From Azolla caroliniana (taxonomy: Eukaryota > Plantae > Polypodiophyta): a stretch of DNA of 64,000 nt. The stretch is taken from positions 186,001 to 250,000 of the forward strand of contig JBHGNT010000002.1 of NCBI GenBank assembly GCA_043228905.1. Direction: 5' to 3'. The notes beneath the pieces were generated by a model, which saw nothing but the letters and a program-made list of their open reading frames with translations, searched no databases and was not told the origin of the DNA. Below, in pieces: positions 41,041-63,387 of the stretch (the stretch's first letter is position 1; the number at the start of each line of letters is the position of its first letter). A program made the position numbers and the translations under genes.

Positions 41041-41069
41041 TCGGCTCTTATCATAGTCCACGTCCCTGG

Positions 41070-42277: not shown

Positions 42278-42289
42278 TGGTATGAGAGC
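42278..42289 (+). other. Primer binding site of Copia A (tRNA-iMet type, 1 mismatch)
   Basis: tggtatgagagc versus the canonical TGGTATCAGAGC, just after the LTR end. Confidence 0.8.
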
Positions 42290-42382
42290 ACGAGGGTTGA
42301 GAACCTCTGCAGCCGACAGACGCTTCGAAGAAAAACCCTAATAATCGGCAACAACAGATAGAGAACCGAAATGGACAGAGGT

Positions 42383-43151
42383 ATGGCAAGCTCGCTTCCC
42401 ACAGAAAAGCTCGACCGGAGAAACTATGCATCCTAGTCATATAAATTGCACCAGTACTTGTTGGAGCATGGATATTGGAGCTATGTGGAAGGAGCCAACA
42501 AGGTAGCACCGGACCCGGCACACAAGGACTTCCCAACATGGGAGCAAGGAGCGAGCAGAGTATTGTACTACCTTGCATCCAGTGTGCACGATCAGATGCT
42601 CAGCTACATCAAAGATGCAAAAACGCCAGAGGCCTAGGAAAATCTCTGGAAGATTTTCGCCGCTAGTACCATGGCACGGAAGTTGCAGCTCTGACAGAAG
42701 TTCCGGACCCTCCACAAGCAGGGGGAGTCAAGTCGGAGCCGGAAACCGGAAGTTGAAAACCAACACGGAATGCTTGTATTGTGGCATGAAAGTCCACAAA
42801 GAGAGTGAGTGCTGGAAGAAGCGTGCCGATTCGGATAAATCCGGATCCGGCAAGGCCGGACAAGGGAACTGGCAAAGCTCGCACTACGCTGAAGGATCAA
42901 AAGGATCCGGAACCGGGAAAACCAGAAAGGGGCCAACCTTTGTGATGAAACACAAGGTCAACTTGATGAAGAAGACCACTTCTGGACCGGAGGAAGTGTG
43001 GTACGTTGATTCCGGAGCATCTAACCATATGACGAGCCATGAAGAGTGGTTCTCGTTTTTAGAGAAACCGGAACAACCGGGGAATGTCGAAACCGGAGAC
43101 GACACCCCTCACCCAATTGTGCATCTCGGAGAAGTCCCTTTAGGCCATGTT
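42383..43151 (+). pseudogene. Copia A gag and protease (stops, internal deletion)
   Basis: MASSLPTEKLDRRNYAS*SYK...; zinc knuckle CLYCGMKVHKESEC; protease motif WYVDSGASNHMT. Confidence 0.9.
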
Positions 43152-43741
43152 TGTTAGGAGACAGTTCCCTCCGGATTGGAAGTGAGAAGAACCGGATGAG
43201 GAGGACCCGGCTACGTAAGACCCGGTGAGAACCGGATGTGGTGTACCCAGCAAGCGCCGGATGATGCAGGCCCGGTGAGGAGTGCTCACCGGATGAAGGG
43301 ACATATTCGTAAATATGTTTCTGAGAGTCCATCGGGGCTATATTTGTAAATAGCCGAAAAGTCATATTAATATAAATATGACTTAGGGCAAACTCAGAGG
43401 CTGTGAAGTTGTCATTCTTGTTGGTGCAAGAAGAGAGAGCGCGTAACAGTGTACAGAGAGAGAGAGAGAGGTCGTTGCCTCTATTGTAACCGCCGCCTAT
43501 GGTGAAGATCGTGAGCACGAGGTCGTTGCCTCCGTGAGCTCACTATTGTAATCATTGTAATATAGTGATAGTTTGGAGTCTATGGACTCCCGTGGTTTTT
43601 CCCTCTCAGGGTTTTCCACGTTAAACATAATGTGTACTCTTCTCTCCTTTGTGTCGTGCGTTTCATTTCCCGTTTTCTCTGTATGATTCTAAACTCGGTT
43701 GTGGCCGAGCGTTGCACATAGAGAGCGTGCAGTTCCTGTCA
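43152..43741 (+). repeat. Copia B 5' LTR (590 bp)
   Basis: TG...CA termini; direct repeat of 54104-54760 apart from a 65-bp unit and a 2-bp GA difference. Confidence 0.96.
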
Positions 43742-43772
43742 AAGTGGTATCAAAGCGAGGCAACACAGAAAA

Positions 43773-44464
43773 ATGGACGATTCATTGGGAGGCATGTTCA
43801 AGCTCACCGGCTCCAACTATTAAGTGTGGAAGTCGAAGATGAGAGACATGCTCGTGGTTAAAGATCTTTGGCTGCCGGTTCAGTTCAGGGTCAAGAGATC
43901 GGACAAAATCGATGCCACGATATGGGAGGTGATGCACATGAAGACAACAGCCTACATACAGTGCTTCATCGACATGAGCCTATACAACAACTTCAATGAA
44001 GAGAGCAAGGCTCATGAGCTCTAGGAGAAGATCGGCATTATGTTTCAGAACAAAAATGTTGTTAACCAGGTTTCGGTATTCCGGAAGCTAGTAAGACTCC
44101 GATACCAAGATGGCTCCAGCATGGCGGAGCACATGAATGCCTTCCAGGGGCTGATACACCAGGCAACATCATTGGAAGTACCTCTCGCCGATGAGGTACT
44201 ACCGCTACTCTTGCTCAATTCCCTCCCGGATAGCTGGGAGACGTTGGTTGTCACTTTGGGCAACGCCGGGCCGGAAGGGAAACGGTTATCCCTGGCAAGA
44301 GTGAAGTCAAGCTTGCTAGATGAGGAGGCGCGTCGGAAAGATAAGGATACGAGCTCCGACTCCAAAGCGCTCCTTACCGAATCAGAACACGGAAGACAAA
44401 GGAATCGTAGTCCCCAGAACCGGGAAAAGTCGGGGACATGGTCAAAGTCAAGGGGGAGGCCTAC
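43773..44464 (+). pseudogene. Copia B gag (5' part, in-frame stops, interrupted by element C)
   Basis: MDDSLGGMFKLTGSNY*VWKSKM...LLLNSLPDSWETLV. After removing C it continues GRP|TCFYCGKQGHFQKNC (zinc knuckle at 50125 onward). Confidence 0.9.
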
Positions 44465-44557
44465 TGTCAGGAACAGTACTAAGACAGAGAAGGAATTAGT
44501 ACTAAAAGAAGTATTAGTACTAAGAGAGGTGAAGAACTCTCGAGAGAAGGAAAGAGT

Positions 44558-44588
<31 letters not shown>

Positions 44589-44878
44589 TGATGATAAGAA
44601 AATATATATATTATGTGAAGAAAATGTACAATAGCTAGGAGGCTTAAGACTGGCGTTGAACCGATTTGGTTCGAAATAATGCCTTGTGCCTCCTTTTATA
44701 GTGTTCTAAGGAATACTCCTGAAGTTTCTAGAATGTTCCAAAGAAATCTGGAATATACATCAATAAAACATAAATGAAAATAATATTTTATGTATGTATT
44801 ACAATGTATAGTCTAATGGTCAAGAGCTCGACCCATGTAGTATAAGGTCATGGGTTCGAGTCTTGCCATATCATGACA
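44465..44878 (-). repeat. Element C 3' LTR (414 bp, contains a (GA)n tract)
   Basis: Direct repeat of 49680-50119; about 6 substitutions outside the microsatellite (manual count). Confidence 0.96.
44809..44870 (+). promoter_or_regulatory. tRNA-like Pol III A-box/B-box module in the LTR of C (second copy at 50050-50111)
   Basis: TAGTCTAATGG at 44809 and GGTTCGAGTC at 44853, at tRNA spacing (T8 to G53 = 45 nt). Confidence 0.6.
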
Positions 44879-47800
44879 CTATTCCCCCTTTAAAACGACG
44901 AGTGTAACGAGTCGTTTTGGATTGAGGACCCGGTTTGTCTAGATATTGACGATGGAAGTCTTCAAGAAGAGCACGAGCATTGGTGACATTCTCTATCGGT
45001 TCCCAAGTACGCTCGCTGGGACTATATCCTAGCCAGTCGATTAGATAGTAGAGCTTGTTGCGAACAAGCTTGGAATCAAGGATGGCGGCAACCTCGTACT
45101 CAAGTCCATCTTCAAGCTCGATCGGGGGTGGAGGCTCTGTAATACGTCCTGGGATGGTGCTTTCTTGATAGGGTTCGAGGAGAGAACTATGAAACACCGG
45201 ACGTATCCGAAGTTGTGGAGGTAGATCAAGACGAACAGTGACATCATTAATCTTTTCGATAATATGGAAAGGACCTAATCGCCGATAATCCAACTTCTCG
45301 CATGGGCGCGTAGTCTTGATGTGTTGTCGGAGTAGCCATACCCGATCTCCAATGTTAAAACTAGATGGGAGTCGATGACGATCCGCATAAACCTTGTGTG
45401 TTTGTTAAGCTTGTTGGAGATGAGTAGATAAATCTGCTTGTATCTTGCGTAACCTCTCCAAACGATCCTCTGCGCAAGGATTTGTGGACACCTCTAGGGT
45501 TTCAAGTACACACCACCGGGGGTGACATCCCGTATAAGCATAAAATGGCGTAACTTTCGTGGATGCATGGATAGAGTTGTTATAGGCAAATTCGGCGAAG
45601 TGGAGAATATCTGCCCAGTCATCCTAATGATAGCTGAGAAAGCACCGCAGATACTGCTCCAGCGTTTGATTGGTTCATTTGGCTTGGCCGTCGGTTTGTG
45701 GGTGGTAGCCGGAGGAGAGGTTACAAGTGACCTTGAGCATGTTAAAAAGGTGCTTCCAGAATTTTGACACGAACTGGGGTCCATGGTCACTGATGATACT
45801 ATCGGGAAGTCCATGATGCCGACATACTTCACGCATGACAATTTCAGCAGTGTCTTCACTGGAGATCTCCTTAGTACATGGCAAGAAATGAGCGATCTTC
45901 GTATATCGATCGACCACCGTTAGAATCGCATTGAACCCCTTAGAGACTCGAAGATCTGTGATGAAGTCTAGAGCAATGGATTGCCACGGCTTGCTTGGAA
46001 TTGGTAATGGTTCTAATAAACCATATGGATGATGCCTTGGCATTTTCGCTCTGCAACATGTATCACAAGTCCGAACAAAATCCTCGACAAATTGTCCCAT
46101 ACAAGGCCACCAGAATGATCGTTGTACTAAGTGTAGTGTTTTAGTACTACCAAAATGCCCAGTTGTATATGTGTCATGACAGTTTTCTACTACTTGAAGG
46201 CGGCAAGAACCATTAGGAACATACAAAAGTTCTTTAAAGAAGAGTAATCCATCATGGTATTTGAATTGCCGATAGTCCGTACCTGGTGGTTGCGACTGTG
46301 AACACAACGCTCGAGAGAGATCAATTTGTGCTAGTATAGCTTGGGCGAACGCATATGTCTTCAAGTCTTCGCGTATGATATCGATAACGCGGGAATCCAT
46401 GGGCATGTCAAAGATCTTTGTTGCTTGTAGTCGTGTCGGTCCCAAGATGACTTGTTTTTGGTTATCGAAAGTTGGCTCGTCGGGACGGGGTGCTAGGTAC
46501 GAACGCCATGATAATGCATCGGCCTTCCCTTGGTGCTTCCCCAAACGATATGTAATTCTGAAGTCGAAATGCGTGAGGAAGTGGGCCCACCGAGCTTGAC
46601 GTCGATTCAACACACGAGCATCTTGAAAGTAGGCAAGGTTCTTGTGGTCACTAAATACGGTGACCAGATGAGAGGATCCCTCCAGAAAATGCCTCCATTG
46701 CATAAAAGAATCCACTATTGCCAATAGCTCCTTATCATGAATTTCGTAGTTGATTTCGGCGGCGTCAAACTTGCGTGAGTGAAAAGCCACAGGATGTAGC
46801 TTCTCATCATTCCCCTGTTGTGACAGAATGCTCCCCAATGCAAAATCCGATGCGTCAGCTTCGATAATAAATGGTTTTTCCGGATCAACATGAGCTAGAA
46901 TTGGAGCCAATGTAAATGCCTTTTTAAGACTCTCGAAAGCCACATCCGTTTCTTCAGACCAAATGAACGGTTGTCCCTTCCTGGTAAGTTGTGTGAGAGG
47001 TAGAACGATCTTTGAGTAATCTTGTATGAACTTCCGGTAAAAATTGGCAAAGCCTAGGAAGCATTGCACATCCCGCACCGAACGTGGAGTCTGCCATTCT
47101 ACCATTGTTTTGACCTTAGCTGGGTCCATGGAGATGCATTCTGACGAAATGATGTAGCCGAGAAATTCCACTTGGTTGCACCCGAAATTACATTTTTCCA
47201 GCTTTGCATACAGACCATGTTCTCGAAGTCGTTTTAGTACTAATAGTACATGAGAATCATGTTCTTCTTGGGTCTTTGAATAAACCAGTAGATCATCCAA
47301 ATAGATGATCAAACAATCATCCAATAGATCTCAGAATATATCATTAGCCATGTGCTGGAAGACTGTCGGTGCATTAGTGAGGCCGAACGGCATGACCGTA
47401 TACTCGAAGTGCCCATATCTGGTGTGAAACGCGGTCTTCCATTCGTCTCCTGGTCAGATCCGTACGAGGTTATATGCTCCTCGTAAGTCGATCTTCGTGA
47501 AGAACCTTGCACCATTGATCCATTCTAAAAGACTTGAGATAAGGGGAAGAGCATACCTATTCCTGATTGTAACCTTATTCAGGCCACGGTAATCTACAAC
47601 AAGACAAAGCGATCCATCCTTTTTCTTGACAAAGAAAATGGGCGCGCCGGGTGGAGATTTCGAATGTCGGATGAAACCATTTTCCAAATTCTCCTCTATA
47701 TAGGCCCGAAGGACTTCCAGCTCGGTTGGTGACAAATTGTAGATCGGTCCCCATGGCGGCTCTTTTCCCGGTTGTAAATCGATGGGGCAATCGTACGGTC

Positions 47801-48467
47801 GATGATGAGGAAGTGTGTTGGCTTGTACTTTATCGAACACATCGGCGTAATGACGATACTTCTCGGGAAGTTGAACGGTGGATCCTTCTTTAGTGGTGCT
47901 GGAGGGGTTTACTGATATTGCAAAGAGGAACATTTCCTCCTTGTGCCCTTCTTTACGCAACTGACGTAGAGAAATGGTTGCCATCTTCTGAGTTGACCCT
48001 TGGGTTTGTCGACACCGGATTTCTCTTGTTCTCCAATGTATGTCTGGTTTATGTAAGTCGAACCACGGAAATCCTAAAACTATGGGATGTTCTAGGATAC
48101 TAATAATATTAAATGATATTACACATGCTAAGTTATCTAGGACAATATTAATGGGCTCTGACACTTCTATGATATTTCCGGAAGCAATGGGACGTCCATC
48201 AATGACTACTACAGAGGCTGGACACTGGAGTTTTCTTAGGGATATATTATGAGCTTGAGCAAATTTCTTATCCATAAAGCAAGAGTTAGCTCTAGAATCT
48301 AGGAGTGCTAGGACATGTACTAGAGGGGTACTTTTAGTACTAACTATTACTTGGGCTACGAACACATCACTAACTTGCTTAGAGGGAATGGAACCACTAA
48401 TGGGCTGCACAGATCTAGGGCTATCCAACCAAACGGCTCCTATTTTGGTTGGACTTAGTCGTTTAAC
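44871..48467 (-). pseudogene. Element C pol: protease, RT, RNase H, integrase, chromodomain (a few stops and a frameshift)
   Basis: LLDSRANSCFMD (protease), FTKIDLRGAYNLVRI and IYLDDLLVYS (RT), EADASDFALG and YEIHDKELLAIV (RNase H), H..H..CDTC and IISDHGPQF (integrase), YEVAAILDSK...YLIDWLGYSPSERTWEP (chromodomain). Confidence 0.95.
48424..48467 (-). promoter_or_regulatory. Putative -1 ribosomal frameshift signal (slippery G TTA AAC plus stem-loop)
   Basis: (-) strand reads GTTAAAC gactaa g TCCAACCAAA ataggagccg TTTGGTTGGA; the -1 frame is open directly into pol. Confidence 0.8.
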
Positions 48468-49606
48468 TCTTCTTCTAACTGACTAAGGACATCAAATCTG
48501 TTTGCAAGATCTAGGCTATTAGTACTATTAGGACTATCAGATATCCCTACTGAAATAGGCTCGGGTTTAGTACAATTAGAACTAGCGACTATTTGGTTTA
48601 CCTGTCTTCTTGGCCTATGGGGGCAGTTTATTGCAATATGTCTTGGTCCACCGCAGTAAAGACATAGTCGATTTGTACGGCGTCGCTGCTTTTCTTCTTC
48701 GGATAATGGCCCTCGACAACGTGTAGTGTCAATCTCCATCGGAGTCGGAGTATTCGCTGGAGGCGCATTATATGACTCCCTCGGAAAAGGTCTTTCTACC
48801 ACTGAGGCGTAGGTGAGCTCTGATCGTGCCCTCGGCATCTGTAGTTGTCGTTCCGAACGTCGCTCAAAGAGGCGGTTGTCACATCTCACCGTGCGACTGA
48901 TTGCTTCTGTTAAGGACTTTGGCTCTTCGGGGAAGGTCAAGAGTAAATCCTTGACGTCGTTGCGTAAACCATAACAGAATTGCTCCATCAACGCTTGATC
49001 ATCCCAAGGGATATCAGCGGCGAGTAGGCGAAAATCTGCAGCATATGCGGAGGCTGGACGGTCACCTTGGTGTAATCGCCGAATTTTGTTGATTGCGGTC
49101 TTGATGCTGTCAGTATCTCCGAAACATGCTTTAAACTCACCTAGAAACTCTTCAAAATTGTTGAGTAACGGGGATTCCTTTTCTAATAGTGGAGCGAACC
49201 ATGCCAACGTTGAGCCACTTAACAAAGTGCCTACTAAACCCACTCGTGATGCATCGGTGGGATACCGAGAAGGATGCATTTGAATAACTAATCGTACCTG
49301 GTTAAGGAACCCTCTAAACTGCGATCGCGTTCCATCGAACTTTGTGGGAAGGCCAATCTTGGGTTCTTTATGAATCCCTTGTGTTCCGGGCCCTTGTTGT
49401 TGCATCGCTACGATGGTTGCTTCGAGTTGTTGCACGCGTAACGCAAGTTCCCCATGTTGTTGTTGCGTTTGCTGCTTTTCTAAGGAGATTTGTTGAAGAT
49501 CCCCCAGCAACCGTTGGTTTTCTTGTTCCAAAGCATGGAACTTCTCTTTCAAGCATTGAAATTCCGAGAAAACAGATTGATATTCTTCAGCGCTAACAAT
49601 GGCCAT
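48455..49606 (-). CDS. Element C Gag (uninterrupted 383-aa ORF; coiled coil, capsid, CCHC knuckle)
   Basis: KFDGTRSQFRGFLNQV (sushi/PEG10-like capsid), PTPMEID and RRRTNRLCLYCGGPRHIAINCP. Confidence 0.9.
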   Translation of the reverse strand: MAIVSAEEYQSVFSEFQCLKEKFHALEQENQRLLGDLQQISLEKQQTQQQHGELALRVQQLEATIVAMQQQGPGTQGIHKEPKIGLPTKFDGTRSQFRGFLNQVRLVIQMHPSRYPTDASRVGLVGTLLSGSTLAWFAPLLEKESPLLNNFEEFLGEFKACFGDTDSIKTAINKIRRLHQGDRPASAYAADFRLLAADIPWDDQALMEQFCYGLRNDVKDLLLTFPEEPKSLTEAISRTVRCDNRLFERRSERQLQMPRARSELTYASVVERPFPRESYNAPPANTPTPMEIDTTRCRGPLSEEEKQRRRTNRLCLYCGGPRHIAINCPHRPRRQVNQIVASSNCTKPEPISVGISDSPNSTNSLDLANRFDVLSQLEEELND

Positions 49607-49665
49607 GGGATGAAAGAAAAGAGGAATAAGAGATTAGTAGGAAATGAGAGAGACAGAAGGTAGGA

Positions 49666-49677
49666 AAATCGGTTCAA
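49666..49677 (-). other. Non-tRNA primer binding site of element C (self-priming type)
   Basis: TTGAACCGATTT lies 2 nt after the 5' LTR and is the exact complement of AAATCGGTTCAA at 49908-49897 in the LTR. Confidence 0.8.
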
Positions 49678-49679
49678 AC

Positions 49680-49795
49680 TGTCAGGAACAGTACTAAGAC
49701 AGAGAAGGAATTAGTACTAAAAGAAGTATTAGTACTAAGAGAGGTGAAGAACTCTCGAGAGAAGGAAAGAGTGAGTGAGAGGGAGGGAGAGGGAG

Positions 49796-49832
<37 letters not shown>

Positions 49833-50119
49833 TGATAAGAAAATATATATATTATGTGAAGAAAATGTACAATAGCTAGGAGGCTTAAGACTGGCGTTGA
49901 ACCGATTTGGTTCGAAATAATGCCTTGTGCCTTCTTTTATAGTGTTCTAAGAAATACTCCTGAAGTTTCTAGAATGTTCCAGAGAAATCTGGAATATACA
50001 TCAATAAAACATAAATGAAAACAATATTCTATATATGTATTACAATGTATAGTCTAATGGTCAAGAGCTCGACCCATGTAGTATAAGGTCATGGGTTCGA
50101 GTCTTGCCATATCATGACA
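49680..50119 (-). repeat. Element C 5' LTR (440 bp; TATA box near 49941)
   Basis: Direct repeat of 44465-44878; the longer GA-rich tract accounts for the 26-bp length difference. Confidence 0.96.
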
Positions 50120-51432
50120 CCTACTTGCTTCTATTGCGGCAAGCAGGGACACTTCCAAAAGAACTGTCGGTATTTCCGAATAGACAAGGAAACCGACGGT
50201 ACCGATTCGAAGCGGACACCGGACCGGACCGGAAGGGAACGGCGCGGCAATCGCGGCAAGTGAAGAAGAGTTGATGCTCATCACCGAGGAGAGTGAGCTA
50301 AACCTTGTCGGCGACGAGATGACCTGGGTGGTCGAATCCGGAGCGTCGTTCCACCTTACCCCGGACCGGTTTAGGGTGTGTCCGGATGGGGAATGAAGGT
50401 ACATGCCGAATTGTCGGCATAGGAGATGTGTGATTGACAACACCAACCGGATGCAAGCTACTGCTGAAGGATGTCTGACACGTTCCGAAGGTTCGACTGA
50501 ACTTGATATCAGCCGGTCAACTAGATGATGAAGGCTACACGGGTAGCATCCAGAATGGTGTTATGAAGTTCAGCAAAGGGAGCCTGATTGTGGCTCGAGC
50601 CCGGAAGGTAAACACGTTGTACTTGATGAATGCCCGGTTATGTCCGAAAGAAGTGAACATGGCATCCGACACTACCGGTGAGCTGTGGCACAAAAGGTTG
50701 TGTCACATGAGCGAGAAGGGGATGAAGAGGCTTGCAGACGAAAACCTCATTCCAGTGAAGAACATGCACTTGGAGAAGTGCACTGATTGTCTGGCCGGTA
50801 AGCAAAACCGGACCTCCTTCCGACCAAGGCCACCGATGAGACGTAATGCACCACTGGAGTTGGTGCATACTGATGTGTGTCAAGTGGACACGAAGTCACA
50901 TGCAGGATCGCAGTACTTCGTGACGTTCATAGATGACCACAGCCGGAAGCTGTGGGCCACACCGTTGAAGACGAAGGATCAGGTGTTATCCGTCTTCAAA
51001 GAGCTCCACGTGAGAGTGGAAAGAGAAAACGGCCGGAAGCTGAAGGCGGTTTGAGCAGACAACGGAGGTGAATATCGGGGGCAGTTCGAGGAGTACTGTC
51101 GCTCGAAGGGAATCCGGCTCGAATTTACCATGCCGAAGACGCCGGAACTAAACGGGCTGGCCGAGAGGATGAACCAGACCATAATGGAGAGGGTCCGGAG
51201 TATGCTGGCGCATGCAAAATTACCCAAGAAGTTTTGGGCTGAGGCACTGTCGACGGCGACATATGTGATAAACAGATCACCCTCACTACCCTTGGACGGA
51301 GACACGCCGCAAAGAGTATGGACTGGTAAGGAAGTGTCCTACCGGCAACTGAAGGTGTTCAGGTGTCTCATGTACGTGCATGTTGCTAAGGACGGGAGAG
51401 GAAAGTTAGATCCAAAGACCCGGCCATGCATA

Positions 51433-52115
51433 TGACGGGAACCCAACGTTCCTTATGCGCAACGCTCGGCCACAACCGAGATTCTTTTCATACACAGAAA
51501 ACAGGAAACGAAACACAGGACACAAAGGAGAGAAAGATATACGCACACTACACATGAGGTTTACGTGGAAAAACCCCAAACTAGGGGAAAAAACCACGGC
51601 AGCCCACAGGCTACAAACTGTCACTATGTATGAATGTACAAAACAGTGAGTTCACGAAGGCAACGACCTCGGACTCACGATCTTCGCCACAGGCGGTGGT
51701 TACAATAGAGGCAACGACCTCGTCTCTCTCTCTCTCTCTCTATACAGTTACGCACTCTCTCTTCTTCTTGCACCAACAAGGAAGAATGACAACAACAGTT
51801 ACTAAAAGTTTGCCCTAAGTCATATTTATACTAATATGACTTTTCGGCTATTTACAAATATAGCCACGATGGGCTCTCATAAACATATTTATGAATATGT
51901 CTCTTCCTCCGGTTCATACCGGGTCTGCACCATCCGGCTCTCCGTAGCCGAGTACTCCTCATCCGGTTCGTACCGGGCCTGCACCATCCGGCTCTCCGTA
52001 GTCGGGTACTCCTCATCCGGTTCGTACCGGGCCTGCACCATCCGGGTCTCCGTAGCCGGGTACTCCTCATATGGTTTCTTCTCCCTTCCCATCCGGAGGG
52101 ACCTGTCTCTCAACA
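51433..52115 (-). mobile_element. Solo LTR D (683 bp), a relative of the Copia B LTR, antisense in the B integrase
   Basis: TSD GCATA at 51428-51432 and 52116-52120. On (-) it starts tgttgagagacaggtccctccggatgggaag and ends gttcccgtca, like the B LTR. Removing it restores RPCI|FLGY. Confidence 0.95.
51905..52068. repeat. Three 54-bp tandem units in U3 of solo LTR D
   Basis: tactcctcatccggttcgtaccgggcctgcaccatccggctctccgtag repeated; 18-aa periodicity in the ORF track. Confidence 0.9.
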
Positions 52116-54103
52116 GCATATTCCTTGGTTACGGCGACGATGAGTTCGGCTACCGAGTGTGGGACCCGGTCGACAAGAAGGTATTCCGGAGTCGAGATAT
52201 TATCTTCATGGAGGACAAGACACTCGCCGACTGGGAGTCGGAGAAGAAGATAATGAACTTTGAGTCAACTGGTAAGGATCGATTCTACGATGATCAGACC
52301 CAACCGGCAAGAGACCGGTTAGCACTCGGGGAACCAGCCGATTACGGTGAGGATATCAAACCGGCTGAAGAAGAAGTAGAGGAAGTTGTAACCGAAACCA
52401 GCCAAGACCCCGAATCGGATTCAGATGAAGAGCAAATGGAGGAGCCGGTTACCGAAGCCCAAAGACGGAGATATCCTCTCAGAGAGAGAAGGGCCCCCCG
52501 GAGATTTCGGGATGCAGAGCATGTGCTGCTGACCGATGAGGAGGAGCCAGAAAGCTTCGAGGAAGCTAAAAGTGACGCCCACAACCGCAAATGGTTAACT
52601 GCCATGCATGATGAGATGGATTCCCTGCATGAGAACCATACGTACGAATTGGTGGAGTTGCCGAAAGGAAAGTGGGCATTCCAAAACAAGTGGGTGTACA
52701 AGTTGAAACTGAGAGATGCCGGCAACCCCCCGAGATACAAAGCCGGGATCGTGGTGAAGGGGTTCCAGCAAAAGAAGGGCGTGGACTTCGACGAGATATT
52801 TGCCCCGGTAATAAAGATGACCTCCATCCGGACGGTGCTGAGTATAGCGGCAAGCATGGACCTCGAGGTAGAGCAGCTGGATGTGAAGACGGCATTCCTT
52901 CACGGTGACCTCGAAGAGGAGATTTACATGCAGCAACCGGAAGGTTTCGTGAAGAAAGGGAAGGAGCACCTGGTTTGCCGGTTGAAGAAGAGCCTCTACG
53001 GGTTGAAGCAGGCCCCCCGACAATGGTACCGCAAGTTCGACTCCTTCATGACCGATCAAGGGTACCACAAGATGCAGGCCGATCACTGCGTGTTTGTGAA
53101 GAAGTTCGAAGGAGGCGACTTCCTGATACTCCTTCTGTACGTGGACGACATGTTGATCATCGAACGGGACCAAGCCAAAATACGGATGCTAAAGAAGGCT
53201 CTCAATCGAACCTTCGCAGTGAAAGACTGGGGATGCATATCATCCGGAACCGGCCAACGAAGTAGTTGTGGCTGTCATAGGAGAAATACGTGACAAAGGT
53301 GCTTCAACGGTTCAACATGTTAGAAGCGAAACCGGTCGGATCGACACTCCCGGAAAACTGCAAATTATCCGGTAAGCAAAGCCCGAAGACGAAAACAGAG
53401 AAGGTTGATATGATGAAGGCTCCATACGCCTCTGCCGTCAGGAGCTTAATGTACGCAATGGTGTGTACCCGACCGGATATAGGATACGCAGTCGGAGTGG
53501 TGAGCCGGTTTATGAGCAATCCCGGCAAGGAGCATTGGAATGCGGTCAAGTGGATACTCCGATACTTGAAGGGCACTTAGAACATGTGTCTCCGATTCGG
53601 CTCCGGTAAACCTCAACTTGACGGTTTTACCGATTCGGACATGTCAGCTGATGTGGATACCAGCCACTCTACATCCAGGTATGTAATGACATATGCAGGG
53701 GGAGCCGTTTCGTGGCAGTCGAGGCTGCAGAAGACGGTTGCGTTGTCAACCACGGAGGTGGAGTACATGGCGGCTGTGGAAGCCGGCAAGGAAATACTAT
53801 GGATGAAGGACTTCATCGGAGAGCTCGGTATCCGGCAAGATGAATACCGGCTCTATTGCGACAGTCAAAGTGTCATCCACCTTGCTAAGAATGCGGCCTA
53901 CCATTCCCGGAGGAAGCATATCCAGCGAAGGTATCACTGGATCCGGGAAAGAGTAGATGACCAGGAGTTCGCGCTGATGAAGATCCACACGGTCGAGAAC
54001 GGGTCAGATATGTTGACCAAAGTACTGGTACCCGACAAGTTGGATACATGTCGGAAGCGGATCGGACTGGTAAGACATCCCATGCCAGAGTGAAGGGGGA
54101 GTT

Positions 54104-54760
54104 TGTTAGGAGACAGGTCCCTCCGGATGGGAAGTGAGAAGAACCGGATGAGGAGGACCCGGCTACGGAAGACCCGGTGAGAACCGGATGTGGTGTACCC
54201 AGCAAGCGCCAGATGACGAGTACCCGGCTACGGAGGACCCGGTGAGAACCGGATGAAGCGTGCCCGGCAAGCGTCGGATGATGCAGGCCCGGTGAGGAGT
54301 GCTCACCAGATGAAGGGACATATTCGTAAATATGTTTCTGAGAGTCCATCGGGGCTATATTTGTAAATAGCCGAAAAGTCATATTAATATAAATATGACT
54401 TAGGGCAAACTCAGAGACTGTGAAGTTGTCATTCTTGTTGGTGCAAGAAGAGAGAGCGCGTAACAGTGTACAGAGAGAAAGAGAAAGAGGCCGTTGCCTC
54501 TGTTGTAACCGCCGCCTGTGGCGAAGATCGTGAGCACGAGGTCGTTGCCTCCGTGAGCTCACTGTTGTAATCATTGTGATATAGTGATAGTTTGGAGTCT
54601 ATGGACTCCCGTGGTTTTTCCCTCTCAGGGTTTTCCACGTTAAACATCATGTGTACTCTTCTCTCCTTTGTGTCGTGCATTTCATTTCCCGTTTTCTGTG
54701 TATGATTCTAAACTCAGTTGTGGCCGAGCGTTGCACATAGAGAGCGTGCAGTTCCTGTCA
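54104..54760 (+). repeat. Copia B 3' LTR (657 bp)
   Basis: Follows the PPT; carries an extra 65-bp unit at 54211-54275 relative to the 5' LTR. Confidence 0.96.
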
Positions 54761-54765
54761 ATGTT

Positions 54766-57700
54766 GGACAAAAGGGAAAGCTGATGAACATATTACATGT
54801 TTCGGCTATCACAAAGAACCTGCTATCGGTCGGACAAATAGTCGATCAGGGGATGCAGGTGCGGTTTACGCACCTCGGGTGCTTCATCAAGGAAGAAGGC
54901 TGGATAATTGTGCAAGGGCGCAAAGAAGGGAGGATGTTCATCCTCAACACAAATGACGTCAGCACCACCACGTTTGCCAAGGACAGAAGATTGAATCGGA
55001 CATCGATCTCTGGCATAAGCGGATCGGCCACGTCAACTACTGGAGGCTTCAGGACCTGCAATCGAAATAGGTTGTGTTCGGTTTGCCGAAATTCAATAGC
55101 CAGAAGGCCCAAATTTGTGAAGCCTGCCAACTCGGGGAGCAACACCAGCTTCTATTCCCCACCGAACGAAACCAAAGCTGTAACAAGCTTGACTTAATCC
55201 ATTTGGATATATGGGTACCGGCACACAAGAGTCGATATTTCGTCTCCTTCATTGATGACTACAACCGGCACACGTGGATCAACCTCATCGAGAAGAAAAG
55301 CGAAGTCTTCGACTATTTCTGGAACCTTCAAAGCTTAGTCGAAAGTGAAACGGGGAGGAAGATCAAGTGCATGCAGTCAGATGGCAGAAAGGAATACTTT
55401 TCCGGCAAATGCAACTGTTATCTGCAACATGATAGAATTCGGAGAGAACTCAGCTATCGATACACACCGGAACAAAATGGTGTGGCCGAGAGAAAGAACT
55501 GGTTGATTGTCGACGCGGCAAGGGCAATGCTGGAGGAAAAGAGCACGCCCAAATTCTACTGGGTTCAAGCGATCCGGACGGTCGTCTACATCCAAAACCG
55601 GATCGGAGACAAGGAGTCTGCACACGAGCTATATTTCGGGCGCAAGACGAATTTGAGGCACCTTCGGATATTCGGTAGCATAGCATATGTGCATGTACCG
55701 GATGAGAAGTGGAGGAAGTTGGATCCGAAGTCGGAGAAGTGCATCTTAGTCGGTTACTCGCATGAGTAGAATCGGCATCAGGGTACTTTCTACCGACTCC
55801 AACTTCCGACTCCGACCCGATTCTTGAAGATTAGGCTAGTGAGCCCGAAGAGGTCCAGGTAGAAAATGAAGATTTTGGTACTCTAGATGAGAGTTTGATC
55901 TCATTTCGGCTAAGTGGGCTGAATGAGCGGCTAAGTCAAGATGACCAGTCTGATGAAGAACCGCGCAAGTAGTGGAGACTCTGTCGTGCATACATGACTA
56001 AGGTGGCGGAAGTGCGTGAGCCGGAGAGCTACACAGAAGCAGCAAAAGACGCAAATTGGCATGCTGCTATGGAGGAAGAAATGTGGGCACTTGATGCCAA
56101 TGACACATGGAACCTGGTTGACCCTCCCCGATAATGTAAACCGATCGGATGTAAGTGGGTATATAAGGTGAAGTACAATGTCGACGGTTCGGTCAATCGG
56201 TACAAGGCCCTATTAGTGGCAAAGGGATATGCGCAAACCCACGGAATCGACTACGACGAGACCTTCGCTCCGGTAGTGAAGATGACGACATTTCATGTGG
56301 TACTAGTTGTTGCTACGGCAAGGGGATGGCATCTTCACCAAATGGACGTGAAGAATGTGTTTCTTCAAGGTGACCTTGAAGAACGGGTCTATATGATCCA
56401 AACCCCTGGATTCCAATCGGAGATGAACAAGTCGGTAGTATGCCGACTCAAGAAGTCGTTTTACGATCTAAAGCAAGCCCCCCGAGCTTGGAATGCGAAG
56501 ATCATGCACTGGTTGCGTAATATGGGGTTTGCGGCCTCAAAGTCCGACTCTTGCTTGTTCATCCGGAACGGTCCGGAACGGTCCAGTGTGCATCCTGCTA
56601 TATGTAGATGATTTAGTCATCACCGGACCGTGTGAAGTTCCAGATGTCGGACGCATTTGAGATGAAGCACCTAGGGGACCTTCATTATTTCCCTGGGATC
56701 GAGGTGATCCGGACCCCCGACGGCATATTGCTCTCACAACGTCATTATGTGTTGAATATGTTGTACAAGTTCAGCATGACGGAATGCAGACTGATCTCTA
56801 CACCCCTAGATGGGAACCTGAAGCTACATCCCAACTCCGGACCGGTCTGCGATGAGAAACAGTTCCGACAAATTGTCGGGAGCCTTATATACCTGGCGAT
56901 CACCCAACCCGACATTAGTTATCCAGTCGGGGTGATCAACCAATTCATGCAGAAGTCGGCCGTTGATCACCTTCAGTGCGCACACCAGATACTCTGATAT
57001 GTTAGTGACGCGAAGGACCAGGGACTGTTATACCGACACGGTATAACTGAAGAGCTAGTCGGATACACCGATTCTAACTGGGCCGGTGATGCATCGGATC
57101 GTCGATCCACCTCCGGTTACATGTTTTCTCTAGGTAGCGCGGTTGTTGCGTGGAGCAGCAAAAAGCAACCGACAGTGGCTTTGTCGAGCATTGAGGTTGA
57201 GTACCGGAGCGCTACCAATGCCACCTGTGAAGCCATTTGGCTTCGACGACTGCTGCATGACCTCCGGATCGAGGTCCTGACCCCGATCCTGATCTATTGT
57301 GACAACATGAGCAGCATTCAGCTCGCCAAGAACCATGTATTCCATGCTCAGACAAAGCACATAGAAGTGCATTATCACTTCATGCGTAAGCGGGTCCTGA
57401 GCGGTGAAGTTGAACTTCGACATGTTCAGACGGATCAGCAAATTGCAGATATCTTCACCAAACCGCTTGGATTGGACAAGTTGCAACACTTCACTGAAAT
57501 GCTCCGTGTTCAGCATCTCGACGTGCCGCACTTGAGGGGGAGAATAGGAACGGGAACGGATGGCACCAAACAAGGAACCAGAGAGGAAGAAAGAACAAAG
57601 GGGGGAGATAAGCAGAAAAAGGAAGCCGAGTCGACCGAAGGAGTCGGCATCCGAACAAGTCGAAGCAACAGCAGCGGTGGTAGAGTCAAGAAGGACAAAA

Positions 57701-57939
57701 CCGACCGGAAGAAGGCCAAGACCCGGACGTGGTCTGATGTGGTGAAGGGGCTAAAAACGGAAGACGAGTTGGAGACTACCAACTCAAACAAGAGTTGGAA
57801 CGAATCGGAGGCAGCCCGATTTGGTTCAACAGATGGATTCGGAAGAGCCAGATCTACTAAAGGCCAAGCGGACACGAACGCAACGGAAGTTGACGCCAAC
57901 ACGGAGGAGCCGACGGGTCGACAAGCACCGGAGTCGTAG
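54766..57939 (+). pseudogene. Copia A integrase, RT and RNase H with a C-terminal extension (multiple disablements)
   Basis: ICEACQLGEQH, FIDDYNR, TPEQNGVAERKN, HQMDVKNVFLQG, YVDDLVITG (across a frameshift), WSSKKQPTVALSS, KHIEVHYHF and QIADIFTKPL. Confidence 0.93.
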
Positions 57940-58166
57940 CAGCGAGGGAGCTGAAATGGGCCTATTGAGCAAACAAGCCGACCGAGAAGGTCGAGGTGCG
58001 CGAAACCGGGCAAGTCGCAGGAAGCAAAACCGAACCGGGTGAGGAGCGTGAGCAAGGCAGGAGGACACCAGAAGGAGTTGGACGGAAGAACTGGCTACCA
58101 CAGAAACTGATACCACGATCCGACCTCAAGTTGAGCTTGAGGGGGAGTGTTGAGCGAGCAAGCTCA

Positions 58167-58371
58167 GATATCAGGATGGCCCCAGCATTACGGCATATCT
58201 GAGCGCCTTCCAGGGACTGATCAACCAAACCATCTCGTTGGAAGTATCTCTAGCCGACGAGGTATTAGCATTACTATTGTTGGGATCCCTTCTGGGCAGA
58301 TGGGATATTCTCGTTGTCACATTGGGCAACGCCGGACCGAAAGGGAAGCACTTATCCCTAGCAAAGGTGAA
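58167..58371 (+). mobile_element. Isolated gag fragment of a Copia B-family element
   Basis: Aligns with 44101-44305 (EVSLADEVLALLLLGSLLGRWDILVVTLGNAGPKGKHLSLAKV versus EVPLADEVLPLLLLNSLPDSWETLVVTLGNAGPEGKRLSLARV). Confidence 0.9.
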
Positions 58372-60887
58372 TTACATTGGTTTCACATTTGGGTACACAC
58401 GCATGTGTATGTTTGGGCTTCAAAGTCGATGTTTAAAGCAATTGTATCACTTCTTGTTTGAATGGCTTTTGGGGTTTAATTTTCTTGCTTTTTGAAACTT
58501 AGTTATTAGCATCACTTTCATTACACTAGCATACATCACAAGTGAATGGACTCAATAAATTGTAGTACCCGTTGGGTGAAAAAGTTGAAGGAAAAAAAGA
58601 AAAAAATATTGTAATCCTAAAGGATGTGAAAGTGCAGTGAAAGGCAAAGAATGGAGTGGAATGCAAGGTAAGGAAAGGCACAAAAAACGGATATAAAAGG
58701 CTCTTATACTTTTATAATAAGTAAGATTAACTATATACTTTTCCATCTTCATCAAGTTGGCCTTTTTCTTTATTGAAATCATGGGTGGAGCACATTACCA
58801 CAAACATTCTATTATGATGCGTATGAACAAGAAGAAGACGATGAAGAACATTAAAACATTGTTAATGAAAAAGTATCATCATCATCACCCCCTTGGGCAT
58901 TATGAGCCTTAGAGACATATTTATGTAAATGGAGTACATTTTCATCATGGTCATCGCCGCTTATCACATTCCCCAAGTTGTAGCAATATTATTGATATGA
59001 ATTATATAATAAATGGCCTTGTGAGTCCATGAACTACGATACTTTAAAGAGACCATGAAAAAAGGTTCCTCGTTGTCGTCATCCTCACCCTCATCATCAT
59101 CATCAACAACCCCACCATTATCGTAATGATCATGTACAAGCATTCTCATATGTGGAAGCGTGAAAGTCGGGATCGCAGTCCATCACTAGTACCTCCCAAT
59201 GCTTCAATCATATCATATGATGATATATTGACAAAGCAATTTCCACAACATGGTATTATAAACATTGGAGCAACTTGCCATCATCATGGACATTGCAACC
59301 AAAAGCTTTCTCAAGTATGCTCATCTATAAGTTAAGTGCGTGATATGGTCTTACCACACCTCACGGGAGGATAACATCAATGTTGAAAATTATAAAAATC
59401 TGTCAACACCACCACCTAACAATAATATTGTTGGATCAACCTCTCCTTGTGGCATCTATCCTCTCAATGATGTCCGAGGTCTTTCTTATACCCCACCTAC
59501 TTCCAACGTTGGCATGGCCCCATTTGGTCGTGCTATGAACCTAATTGATATCATTGGCCCTTCACATGCCCCCTACCTACAACTAATTATGTTGACAATT
59601 TAATCATATTTCTAAATTAGAAAGCTAATGAGATATACATAACGTCTCATAAAAGATAAACTATTGTTGGAAGAAGCCTAATTTGAAAAGTTACTTTAAA
59701 ACCTATATGTTTTGGAAATTTGGATACCAAAGGTTTGTCAGTCTAAAAGGCACTCATGCATTCAAGACAGTTATTACTTTCTTAAGGCTATAAATTTGGA
59801 AAGCTATCTAAATCCTAATTTTCCGGAAATTGCCACATTGTCTAGAATGTCTATGAAGGCAATGTAGCAATATATTTTTCATATTAATAAACTAGTGCTG
59901 GTAAGCCCAAATATCGCAATTGCATTGGCACGAAAGTAGCTGTACGGCAAAGTTTCCACTGAGCCAAATTTGGTGGGAACCACAACCGAAATAAATGTAT
60001 TATTCGTTTAATTTCTGTGAGATGTTCTACCCCTTGCATATGTCTATATCATAGACATTACAGCAAATTTGTCTTTCCTCTAGAGTCCTAGGTCAACAGT
60101 TTATGGTTAAGGTGCAAAATTTAGATCAATGTGTTTAAAAAACAGAATGTCCTGATGGTTTGAATTTCAGCCATTCCTGCTTAATGCTTCCCGAAGACAA
60201 AGAGTGTATATCTTGAGAAGCGAAAACAAGCTCCTGTGTGCAGCTAAAATTAATTAGGAATACTTGCACAATCCAAATGACAAAACACTTCCACGAGTTT
60301 CATAATTTACAAACTTGGACTATGATTGAAACAATGGTTATATTTCACTAACGAGGCAGTATGCGTAATCATATTTTAATGGAGTCAATTAAGAAGCTAA
60401 ATATGTGACCATCAACTCTACTTCTGTACAAGTCATAACCTGGGTGTCAAATGAATTTTCAGTCTTTTGGGAGGAGATTATGAAACGACAAAGGGCAAAG
60501 CAATGACTTTGACCTCTTTGTTTAATTAATAATGAAATAGAGCAAATGTAAACATCGTGGGCAGCTCACACCGAAAAACAGAGAACTCTGAATAAAAGGG
60601 CTCTTGCAGTAACTCATCTAGCTCCCTATGTAGAACACTGATCTCTTAGAGCAGGGAAAAGACATAGATACATATTAAGCTGGTAGCTCCTACATAGTCC
60701 ATGATTTACAGATGCATTTATTTCCAAGATGGAGATTACCCTTAAGTTATTTATCAAGATGGAACATACAAAGTGCTCATTTCCCATTCATTGTAGAGCA
60801 AGTTTTACATGCACCCTAATCATAGCTCTGGCCCTCCATCATACCTATGGAAAGAATCGTGCTGGCCACACCTCGTTTCTACGGGCA

Positions 60888-62558
60888 CTATCTTGAAGTT
60901 GACTCGACAACAGCATAGCATTCCAAACAGAATGCTCTATCATATCGTTCCTGGAAGCTGAAAGGAAGAGTTGTATGACTTAGAATAAAGAGCAGACATG
61001 CATCAATCAAACTTTTGCAACATCTTACTCTAGTATAGAACACACTGAGCAGAAGTCCTCATCACATCTTGCACACTGCCTGCAACACATTGAACATGCC
61101 TTCCTCCTATTTATCAATACAGAAGTAAACTCCATTAGAGCATGTGGCATGCATCCATGATTACTTATGTGTTTATGCATGTGTTCTCTGCTATTACCTT
61201 TAACGATCTTAATCTCATAACATGATTAGAAACAAATCCACGAAGCAAGCTAAGGAGTAACAAATGGACCACCATAAAATGGATGAGAAAGATAATGAAT
61301 TGGCTAATTTTTCAAGTAAAGACGCCTAAGTAGAATTTTAAAAAAAGGAATCAGATTTAAAAACGTCTAAGATATAGAGTGCTAGATGTGAATCATCTTC
61401 ATTCTAATTTAGGATAAATTGCTTACAACATTACATCAAACACTCAAGCAAGTCACTAGAACAACATTGCTTCTATTGAATTGAGCACTCCATGCTAATG
61501 GAACAGACATCAGTTTTACTTAGAACAAAGAGAGGTATCAGGAAACTAAACCCTGCTTCCTCAAACTAATGCCATGTGCTTGAGGTATCAGGAATGCAAC
61601 AATTTCACTTTATTATATTGGTTTGGCACTCTGGAAACTGAAATTCACAGTGGAGTGAAAATGCATTTCCTCAAACAATAGAAACTTAGTAGCACTTCTG
61701 TGAAGATTTTGGTAAAAAATCACGGATCATACTTATCATAAATCTGTTCACTCTATCTCATTGAAACACAAAAGTTATGTCTGATGTTAAGATAACAACC
61801 TTTCACACATACTAAAGAGGCATATATATGTTTGGAAACATACAGGGTACATTTACTCTAGTAAGTTATGTATGACATGAAGAAAACCAAGTTTCGTTGA
61901 ACTTTAGAAAAGAATTTCTACAACCAAGTTTCGTTTCCAACCAATTGCTGGAGGCTAAAGTCACTTCTGTCATATATGAAGGCAATGTTTTCATATTTTT
62001 TCTTAGCACATATGGCATGTTCAAGAATACATGTGCTTAAAATATTCCAAACGTGAAAGACTGCAAATAACGCGTAAAACGTGTCTTAGAAGTATGAGAG
62101 AGATACAGCCATCACCTGCAATGAAAGCACATGAGGTTGGACGGTACCGTTCCAGATGTGGAGGTGTTGGAAGCAGCTAGATCCACTGATACTATCTTTC
62201 CACTAAAGTTTGAGATGAAGAATGTCCGATTGGTGGAAGAAAGAGGCATATCTTGCCTTGCACACGAACAGCATGTGGCTTCCGATTCTAAACACTTTCC
62301 TCCTACTGCTGCTTTGTTCACTGAACGCATATTTCGGATTGTAGACTCTGTTGTAATAAAAATAATAAAAATTCCCAAGGAGAGCATTCGTTTCCAGGGA
62401 CATCATCATTTAAAGAGATCGACTCAGAGTTAAAATAAGAGTTATCAGGGAAACATAACGAGAACCTTACCGTAAAGAGAGAATGCATCGTCTTTCATCA
62501 ATTTGAGATCTTCCGTTCTTTCTGAGAACGCAGCCGCCGTCCTTTTGAAACCCAGCAT
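60888..62558 (-). CDS. SIVA1: SIVA-like zinc-finger protein, 155 aa; exons 62558-62471, 62347-62116, 61106-61029 and 60957-60888
   Basis: Three GT-AG introns in matching phases (1, 2, 2) give 468 nt without internal stops. The C-terminus CFHC-RRKA-CSMC-CRQ-CARC-DEDF-CSVC-SILDFQERYDRAF-CLEC has the cysteine spacing of the animal SIVA1 C-terminus as I recall it. The symbol is assigned by motif recognition, not by a database search. Confidence 0.8.
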
Positions 62559-62632
62559 ATTCACCTGAGAGAGCAGCCAAGTTGCAGACTGTATGAGTTC
62601 CCGCCAAATAATAATGCTCGATTTCGCAGAAA

Positions 62633-62637
62633 CAGAC

Positions 62638-62686
<49 letters not shown>
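62633..62686. repeat. (GA/CT)n microsatellite upstream of the SIVA-like ATG (5' UTR or promoter)
   Basis: cagacagacagagagagaga...gagacagaga about 75 bp upstream of the start codon. Confidence 0.9.
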
Positions 62687-63090
62687 ATGTGACCAAGAAG
62701 ATGAATACATATTTAGAGAAAGTGAGTTCACACTGGTGCTTTTGAAAACTAACGTAACTAGCTTTTTCCTATTTCGATTTGGGGTGGTCAGTATATGTAC
62801 ATAATACATAATTGTATGCGTCCTATGTTGTTAGTAGGTTACCAAGCTACTAACATCGGTACTTACCATGCACCTGATTTCGTTTTGGGTTCCGATAAGT
62901 ACAATTTGCATGGAGAAATCTTCGCATCTAACCTTTGTGTGGCAATCATTCTGTCGAGACATCCACATAAGCAACTCATGTAGTTCCTTTGTGAAGGCAA
63001 CGTAGTGTTTGCCATTTGAAGCATCGTGAGGAGTGGGGGCCCTTCATCTACATTAGCAACACAAATATCAAGTAGTACGCTATCGTTGAC

Positions 63091-63387
63091 AATGGTTGTA
63101 TGATGAAGAGTTGATGTGCATCGTGGAGTTCCCCTTCGTCTCTCACCATTGTTTGTAGCAAACATGGAGGTTGACACCATTCCTCCTTGGGATCCATGTT
63201 CAGTCTAGGGTTCACATCGTAGACAGTGGTTGTACAATAAAGAGTTGATTTGCATCGTACAGTTCCCCTTCATCTCACACCATTGTTTGTAGCAAATATG
63301 GACACTGACACCGTACCTCATCAGGATCCATGTTTAGCCTAAGGTTCCGCCCAATCCTAGGCTCCATGTTTAGTCTAGGGTTCACAC
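63091..63387. repeat. Diverged 134-bp tandem duplication plus a partial third copy
   Basis: tggttgta at 63093/63227, agagttgat at 63107/63241 and caccattgtttgtagcaaa at 63144/63278. Confidence 0.8.

What the first reader, a model, noticed from the sequence alone, without database searches (positions are those of the whole stretch)
60888..62558. Intact spliced SIVA-like gene, invisible in the ORF track, 20 kb from the satellite
Seen: four exons splice in frame to MLGFKRTAAAFSERTEDLKLMKDDAFSLYESTIRNMRS...LMCFHCRRKACSMCCRQCARCDEDFCSVCSILDFQERYDRAFCLECYAVVESTSR. Known (from memory): animal SIVA1 ends with five CxxC pairs spaced 4, 3, 4 and 13 residues apart, as here, and acts in apoptosis and in PCNA/RAD18 ubiquitination. 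Inference: a SIVA homologue in a plant that lacks CD27 and p53 suggests an older function, and the family may be patchily retained in land plants.
Basis: partly seen in the sequence, partly recalled or inferred. Interest (0 to 1): 0.7.

Follow-up and report, generated by a model that had tools for sequence, protein, structure and literature searches.

The report
Spliced plant SIVA zinc-finger gene
This is a real four-exon plant gene whose small zinc-finger protein is very likely a relative of SIVA1, a human cell-death and DNA-repair regulator, and it likely works as a nuclear adaptor in dividing cells rather than in animal-style cell death.

Summary
Confirmed. The four exons join in frame (155 aa). 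Two splice joints appear in transcript-like contigs of 6 of 7 runs laid and the third in 4 of 7, from six studies. The cysteine domain shows 0 changes in 132 nt against a close relative, where introns differ by 8.5%. A full-length fern homologue (Pteridium, 46% identical) just passes the Pfam Siva cut-off (26.5 against 26.2 bits), and the ESM Atlas points to Siva too. Only two blocks are kept between window and fern: an N-terminal predicted helix (15/21 identical) and the five-CxxC domain (37/47). An E2F-like site lies 43 nt before the ATG (weak). My paper searches found no plant SIVA, but the fern protein already carries an automatic Siva label, and this scan noted SIVA earlier in fungi and one green alga. 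New member of a known family; function inferred; patchy retention in plants not testable here.

The parts
62471..62558 (-). Coding exon 1 (codons 1-29 + 1 nt): ATG, basic KR at residues 5-6, first half of the conserved predicted helix
   Evidence: covered by contigs of X2, X3, X12, X6; only other ATG within 200 nt upstream is at 62710, beyond the laid contigs
62348..62470 (-). Intron 1, 123 nt, GT-AG, phase 1; interrupts the conserved helix in codon 30
   Evidence: joint in 4 of 7 runs laid; 117 nt GT-AG in L001
62116..62347 (-). Coding exon 2: end of helix, variable linker, extra cysteines 48/55/56/58, first CxxC pair (103/106)
61107..62115 (-). Intron 2, 1009 nt, GT-AG, phase 2
   Evidence: joint in 6 of 7 runs laid
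61029..61106 (-). Coding exon 3: CxxC pairs 2-4; matches Pfam Siva positions 129-153
   Evidence: E 0.012; 0 of 78 nt differ from L001
60958..61028 (-). Intron 3, 71 nt, GT-AG, phase 2 in codon 133
   Evidence: joint in 6 of 7 runs laid
60888..60957 (-). Coding exon 4: conserved Tyr138, last CxxC pair (143/146), TAG
62322..62507 (-). Conserved N-terminal block, residues 18-38 (split by intron 1); predicted helix, candidate counterpart of the SIVA amphipathic helix
   Evidence: 15 of 21 identical to fern; only helix in a low-confidence AlphaFold model of the fern protein; no Pfam hit on its own
60918..62129 (-). Five-CxxC domain, residues 103-146, spread over exons 2-4
   Evidence: 37 of 47 identical to fern over 101-147; fern copy matches Pfam Siva 120-168; 0 of 132 nt changed against L001
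62262..62273 (-). Upstream cysteine cluster, residues 55-58; a CxC is kept in fern (62/64); candidate stand-in for the missing first pair of animal SIVA
   Evidence: role inferred
62601..62608 (-). E2F-like site TTTGGCGG in the 5' untranslated region, 43 nt before the ATG
   Evidence: kept in L001; consensus recalled; chance 0.21 per shuffled 400 nt
62559..62686 (-). 5' untranslated region with CT-repeat (62634-62686)
   Evidence: contigs run on without a joint to 62612-62624; repeat
60555..60887 (-). 3' untranslated region (at least to 60555 in X12; a separate X3 contig reaches 60439)
   Evidence: table 8

Best explanation
The gene is spliced and conserved and encodes a 155-residue protein that is very likely a land-plant member of the SIVA family, and it likely acts as a small nuclear two-ended adaptor in dividing cells. 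Shown: the splicing, the purifying selection on the cysteine domain, and two blocks kept since the split from ferns (residues 18-38 and 101-147) joined by a fast-changing linker. Inferred steps: (1) the five CxxC pairs bind zinc and fold into the SIVA C-terminal domain; the upstream CxC may complete a third zinc site; (2) the basic N-terminus takes the protein into the nucleus, as residues 1-33 do in mouse Siva-1; (3) the N-terminal helix corresponds to the animal SAH helix, which in human SIVA1 overlaps the segment that binds the ubiquitin ligase RAD18, and would grip a ubiquitin ligase or similar partner while the zinc domain grips a second protein; (4) an E2F-like site would tie expression to S phase, as E2F1 sites do for human SIVA1. 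The likely job is to bring a ligase to a substrate in replication or DNA-damage signalling, without a classical PIP contact to PCNA. Family identity about 0.85-0.9; the full mechanism as stated about 0.4.
For: Splice joints. Cys domain 0/132 nt changed against introns 102/1194, Fisher p 2e-5. Fern P0002: 46% identical over 160 columns, E 5e-44; Pfam Siva 26.5 bits, E 6e-6, only family up to E 10. Atlas: three best clusters Siva, first 0.89 with 176 shared features, 10 of 10 best named hits share the family. By the Pfam register the window's last Cys sits at profile 168 and Tyr138 at 160; with a two-residue offset (inferred from the Cys region ending at 170, PMC3935273) that is human Tyr162, a residue named in PMC6171514. 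Animal SIVA also has four exons and its exon 2 carries most of the SAH helix (PMC6171514, PMC3208582), so its intron 1 falls early in the helix, as the plant intron 1 falls within the conserved helix. Mouse Siva-1 begins with KR at 3-4 and LKV at 16-18 (PMC6997380 Table 1); window and fern have KR at 5-6 and LKL at 18-20 / 19-21. Human RAD18-binding segment 40-58 (PMC4068132), SAH 36-55 (PMC2678867), two E2F1 promoter elements (PMC6171514).
Against: The window's own spliced protein was not scored against Pfam; the passing score belongs to the fern protein and clears the cut-off by 0.3 bits. The match covers only profile 120-168; the N-terminal 45 residues of the fern protein, and exons 1, 2 and 4 alone, hit nothing. 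The Atlas score is under 0.9, which the tool calls a lead only, and a third of shuffled proteins also give ten same-family hits. The helix's amphipathicity is not above shuffles (p 0.12 and 0.15). The AlphaFold model is unusable (pLDDT 32). No PIP box. RAD18 is absent from all 4 green plants in PMC3969565 Supplementary Table 3. The E2F consensus is recalled, occurs by chance in 21% of shuffled 400-nt stretches, and its conservation in L001 says little because the whole 5' UTR is 95% alike. Residues 1-100 change almost at the intron rate between close relatives (pN 0.068, p 0.5). No experiment on any plant copy is known to me.
Confidence: 0.42

Rival explanations
1. It is a true SIVA and works just as in human cells, bridging a plant RAD18 to PCNA through a non-canonical PCNA contact.
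For: The conserved helix lies where the RAD18-binding segment would be. Siva1 and Rad18 are both on a list of genes shared by bee and vertebrates (PMC2656531). The human PIP box is itself described as divergent.
Against: No Q-x-x-[LIMV] in window or L001; the two Q-x-x-hydrophobic stretches in fern are not shared with the window protein; the linker that would hold the box is the least conserved part (16 of 62). RAD18 not detected in 4 of 4 green plants in one survey.
Confidence: 0.12
2. It is a true SIVA but acts outside DNA metabolism, for example in plant programmed cell death or as a cytoplasmic or microtubule-linked adaptor.
For: Animal SIVA1 has many cytoplasmic partners that bind its C-terminal domain, such as stathmin and LPA2 (PMC6171514), and this domain is the most conserved part here.
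Against: CD27, p53 and BCL-2 proteins are absent from plants (recalled). The basic N-terminus is kept from window to fern (5 of 6 identical). An E2F-like site lies before the ATG.
Confidence: 0.22
3. It is a plant zinc-finger protein unrelated to SIVA; the cysteine spacing is shared by convergence or by a very old generic zinc module.
For: The Pfam score is borderline and confined to the Cys domain; only five of the six animal pairs are at the expected spacing; weak hits to ZZ (E 0.008) and FYVE (E 0.014) domains in the PDB; an unchecked scan note says this Cys pattern is common in prokaryotes and viruses.
Against: Siva is the only Pfam family up to E 10 for the full fern protein; the Atlas agrees; similar length, four exons, basic start, a helix split by intron 1 and a matching tyrosine; the FYVE signature motifs (recalled) are not seen.
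Confidence: 0.12
4. It is a SIVA relic under light constraint: only the zinc fold is kept and the gene is close to dispensable.
For: Residues 1-100 evolve near the intron rate among close relatives; an 18-nt deletion and other indels in exon 2 of one relative; LTR-like sequence abuts the start of intron 2 in L002/L003; no seed-plant homologue was recovered.
Against: Residues 18-38 are 15 of 21 identical to fern; all relatives seen keep frame and splice sites; spliced contigs in six studies.
Confidence: 0.1

Closest known systems
Animal SIVA1 / Siva-1 (Pfam PF05458, CD27-binding protein)
   Same: C-terminal CxxC array matching profile 120-168; similar size (155-165 against 175 aa); four exons; basic N-terminus; a helix split by intron 1; an E2F-type element near the start (human: shown in papers; plant: motif only).
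   Different: Five CxxC pairs at the expected spacing rather than six, with an extra Cys cluster about 45 residues upstream; no PIP box; no detectable match over the SAH/DDHR half; helix about 12 residues closer to the N-terminus; host lacks CD27, p53, BCL-xL (recalled) and perhaps RAD18.
Fern protein EP00250_Pteridium_aquilinum_P004521 (EukProt; P0002)
   Same: 46% identical over the whole length; same two conserved blocks and identical Cys spacing; already carries a precomputed PF05458 label.
   Different: 165 aa; linker 26% identical; transcript-derived, so its introns are not known; no function on record.
FYVE (ZFYVE16, 3t7l) and ZZ (MIB1, 4xi6) zinc fingers
   Same: Runs of CxxC knuckles; weak sequence hits to P0002 (E 0.014 and 0.008).
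   Different: Neither Pfam family scores up to E 10; alignments need gaps; FYVE lipid-binding motifs (recalled) are not present.

Membership tests
Siva (PF05458) | Whole-protein score at or above the gathering cut-off of 26.2 bits | tested here: inconclusive
   Met narrowly by the fern homologue (26.5 bits); the window's spliced product was not scored; exon 3 alone gives 15.8 bits.
Siva (PF05458) | C-terminal CxxC array in register with the profile | tested here: met
   Fern 106-154 against profile 120-168 with equal lengths; window exon 3 against 129-153; spacing 4, 3, 4, 13 in both.
Siva (PF05458) | Six cysteine pairs (three zinc ions) as in mammalian Siva (PMC3208582) | tested here: not met
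   Five pairs in register; the first animal pair lies outside the matched stretch; an upstream Cys cluster (55-58; fern 56, 62, 64) might stand in. Zinc binding not testable here.
Siva (PF05458) | N-terminal amphipathic helix (SAH, human 36-55) | tested here: inconclusive
   Conserved block 18-38 and predicted helix, but no Pfam match and hydrophobic moment not above shuffles.
Siva (PF05458) | Intron positions shared with animal SIVA1 | not testable with these tools
   No animal gene could be fetched. Papers show four exons with exon 2 holding most of the SAH. By recall, unverified, human introns 1 and 3 fall in codons 40 (phase 1) and 157 (phase 2), which would match plant codons 30 and 133.
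SIVA1 as RAD18-PCNA adaptor (PMC4068132) | PIP box starting Q-x-x-hydrophobic in the middle region (human 83-96) | tested here: not met
   None in window or L001 protein; no shared one in fern.
SIVA1 as RAD18-PCNA adaptor (PMC4068132) | A RAD18 partner in the same genome | not testable with these tools
   No genome held; RAD18 absent from 4 of 4 green plants in PMC3969565 Supplementary Table 3; no scan note on RAD18 in this genome.
FYVE / ZZ zinc fingers | Pfam family match | tested here: not met
   No such family up to E 10 for P0002 or the exons; only weak PDB sequence hits.

The most novel reading that the evidence does not exclude
SIVA is as old as the plant-animal split and began as an E2F-driven, S-phase nuclear adaptor for a ubiquitin ligase; land plants kept the ligase-binding helix, the zinc domain and perhaps two ancestral introns, but dropped the PIP box, so the plant protein shows which surfaces carry SIVA's original job and may name the unknown helper of PCNA or fork-protein ubiquitination in plants that lack RAD18.
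Probability: 0.25. Interest if true: 0.68.

Novelty: new member of a known kind. Interest (0 to 1): 0.42.

Why it matters
SIVA1 is studied only in animals in the papers my searches returned, with conflicting roles in apoptosis, p53 control and translesion synthesis, and no solved structure was matched. A copy in plants, which lack CD27, p53 and BCL-2 proteins (recalled), strips away the animal-only partners. The window-fern comparison narrows the essential parts to one helix and one zinc domain. This gives a simple knock-out and pull-down test of SIVA's ancestral role in a tractable non-seed plant. It is a useful extension of a known family, not a new kind of system.

Tried and rejected
No genome is held for the window, so copy number and partner genes (RAD18, PCNA) could not be checked. 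No RNA holder is on record as RNA; all runs are guessed RNA contigs. Word searches with the exon-3 frame (no candidate) and exon 2 (69 candidates, none at E 0.01) failed. phmmer of a 31-residue exon-3 frame against 1.84 billion representatives gave 1 hit, a gene-caller ORF of a close relative. The pooled-exon profile gave 1 hit among 58 candidates at only 34 bits, so blanks for seed plants, mosses or algae say little. P0002 found no relative in viral contigs (1 pattern match) or prokaryote genomes (47 pattern matches); these are exact-peptide scans. AlphaFold on a 6-row alignment gave pLDDT 32, so no fold search was run. The Atlas could not read the window frames, the L001 frame or P0002. An N-terminal extension was rejected: the frame is open upstream in the window, but a 2-nt deletion at 62567 in X3 and X12 breaks it. 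An upstream acceptor near 62564 was rejected: contigs run through it without a joint. A role for the satellite was dropped: only retrotransposon remains lie between. Three papers were not held (Xue 2002; a plant E2F target survey, asked by PMC id and by DOI). No complex prediction was run: no plant partner sequence was at hand.

Full report
Observation. Four minus-strand exons (62558-62471, 62347-62116, 61106-61029, 60957-60888) join to 155 codons and a TAG; the introns are GT-AG, 123, 1009 and 71 nt, phases 1, 2, 2, and poorer in GC than the exons. I laid 7 of the 15 listed runs. The joints of introns 2 and 3 stand in 6 of 7, that of intron 1 in 4 of 7 (two contigs end before it, one run laid nothing), from six studies and five coded organisms. 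One contig has no other letter over 416 nt. The runs are RNA by guess only, but the skipped parts end in canonical dinucleotides, and DNA contigs of relatives keep the introns. Contigs continue 5' of the ATG without a joint, and a 2-nt deletion in two relatives breaks the open frame upstream, so 62558 is the likely start.

Setting. A 178-bp satellite fills 1-41040. Between it and the gene lie Gypsy- and Copia-type retrotransposon remains (4 of 6 ORFs scanned hit such families). I found nothing that ties the gene to the satellite. No genome is held; the host is taken to be a land plant from the fern homologue and was not identified further.

Selection. A metagenome scan gave 3 loci from 159 pattern matches. 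L001 holds the whole gene with the same three introns. Against it, codons 103-146 show 0 changes in 132 nt, whereas introns show 102 in 1194 (Fisher p 2e-5). Residues 1-100 show pN 0.068 and pS 0.104, not different from the intron rate (p 0.5). Of the differences that read laying listed in exons 3-4 (the lists were cut), those inside codons 103-146 are two silent changes and one Arg-to-Thr change; none hits a cysteine.

Homologues. Three protein searches failed or gave only a close relative's ORF. A pooled-exon profile then found 1 protein among 58 candidates: P0002, 165 aa, from the fern Pteridium aquilinum in EukProt, with a precomputed Siva label. It is 46% identical to the spliced product over 160 columns (E 5e-44) and runs straight across all three junctions, which confirms the model a second way. 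Identity is in blocks: residues 1-6 5/6, 7-17 1/11, 18-38 15/21, 39-100 16/62, 101-147 37/47, 148-155 1/8.

Family. P0002 scores 26.5 bits on Pfam Siva (cut-off 26.2, E 6e-6), the only family up to E 10, over profile 120-168 of 173. Window exon 3 alone scores 15.8 bits on 129-153; exons 1, 2, 4 and the fern N-terminal 45 residues hit nothing relevant. The Atlas, asked with P0001, gave three Siva clusters first (0.89, 176 shared features), a lead by the tool's own scale. By the Pfam register Tyr138 falls on profile 160 and the last Cys on 168; with an inferred offset of two these are human Tyr162 and Cys170, positions named in PMC6171514 and PMC3935273. Mammalian Siva has six Cys pairs and binds three zinc ions (PMC3208582, citing Nestler et al.); the plant proteins have five pairs in register plus an upstream cluster with a shared CxC, which may complete the third site (inference). 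Animal Siva also has four exons, and skipping exon 2 removes most of the SAH helix, so intron 1 falls early in that helix; plant intron 1 falls inside the conserved block 18-38. By recall, not checked here, human introns 1 and 3 sit at the matching codons and phases. I put family membership at 0.85-0.9.

Mechanism. The anatomy is that of a two-ended adaptor: basic start, one conserved predicted helix, a free linker, a rigidly kept zinc domain. In mouse, residues 1-33 suffice for nuclear import (PMC3935273). In human cells residues 40-58 bind RAD18 and 83-96 hold a PIP box for PCNA (PMC4068132). The plant protein keeps a block where the first would be and has no PIP box. One automated survey lists no RAD18 in Chlamydomonas, Physcomitrium, rice or Arabidopsis (PMC3969565), though such tables miss orthologues. 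An E2F-like octamer lies 43 nt before the ATG and is kept in L001; human SIVA1 has two E2F1 elements. The loose consensus arises by chance in 21% of shuffled 400-nt stretches; a stricter pattern chosen after seeing the site in 0.3%. I looked for it after reading a scan note on an MCB-flanked fungal Siva-like gene. I commit to: a nuclear adaptor in dividing cells that brings a ubiquitin ligase to a substrate in replication or DNA-damage signalling, without a classical PCNA contact (0.42). Every functional step is inferred. The AlphaFold model (pLDDT 32) adds only a hint of a helix at fern 23-39, and the helix's hydrophobic moment is not above shuffles.

Novelty. Searches for SIVA with plant and Arabidopsis (417 papers, 30 listed, none on the protein by title), SIVA1 with plants and homolog (18 papers), PF05458, 'apoptosis regulatory protein Siva', 'Cd27 binding protein', SIVA1 with evolution or Dictyostelium (25 listed) and SIVA1 with pombe and ortholog showed no paper on a plant SIVA in the listings; subscription papers and most supplements were not searched and may hold one. 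The fern protein is already machine-labelled Siva, and unchecked scan notes report SIVA in chytrids, other early fungi, fission yeast and one green alga. No scan note matches this sequence or place. So this extends a known family to land plants and sharpens which parts are old; it is not a new system. Whether seed plants lost the gene is open: none was found, but the query gave even the fern protein only 34 bits.

Papers and what I saw: PMC3935273, parts 1 and 2 of 3 of the text; PMC4068132, PMC6171514, PMC3208582, PMC2678867, PMC6997380, PMC2656531, PMC8859465, PMC6356670, PMC7761550, PMC13250551 and PMC6794406, passages only; PMC3969565, passages plus rows of Supplementary Table 3 and one other table, its file 1 not searchable. 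Nestler et al., Fortin et al. and the plant E2F consensus were not read (cited second-hand or recalled).

Verdict. Observation confirmed; interpretation partly supported; new member of a known kind; interest 0.42.

Noticed in passing
L002:1-477 and L003:1-188 (joins at window 62111): In two related contigs, sequence like the window's own LTR-type repeats (about 80-89% to 53874-54411 and 43257-43394) abuts the gene a few bases into intron 2; exons 1-2 are not on these contigs. Either a retrotransposon insertion at the donor site in that copy or an assembly join.
   Followed up: partly
window 19432-29123: Tandem Repeats Finder rows recur every 1333 bases within the 178-bp satellite with the same scores, which points to a higher-order repeat of about 7.5 monomers copied some seven times.
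   Followed up: no
window 41040-58400: Nested retrotransposon remains: a Gypsy-type element (44463-50120, terminal repeats 93% alike) inside Copia-type sequence, and a 569-nt repeat pair at 43192-43758 and 54209-54777, 94% alike.
   Followed up: partly
window 63082-63347: Two copies of a 134-bp unit, 83% alike, about 500 bases upstream of the gene.
   Followed up: no
window 62142-62165 (run X3): One relative's transcript contig lacks 18 nt in total here and has 3 nt added at 62294, both frame-keeping, in the variable linker.
   Followed up: no
window 61371-62087 (runs X3, X12): Low-depth contigs cover parts of intron 2, consistent with unspliced precursor or DNA in those runs.
   Followed up: no
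window 58780-59580: AT-rich stretch with His/Asp-type trinucleotide runs and broken frames downstream of the gene, shared with L002/L003 from 59186 on; not identified.
   Followed up: no
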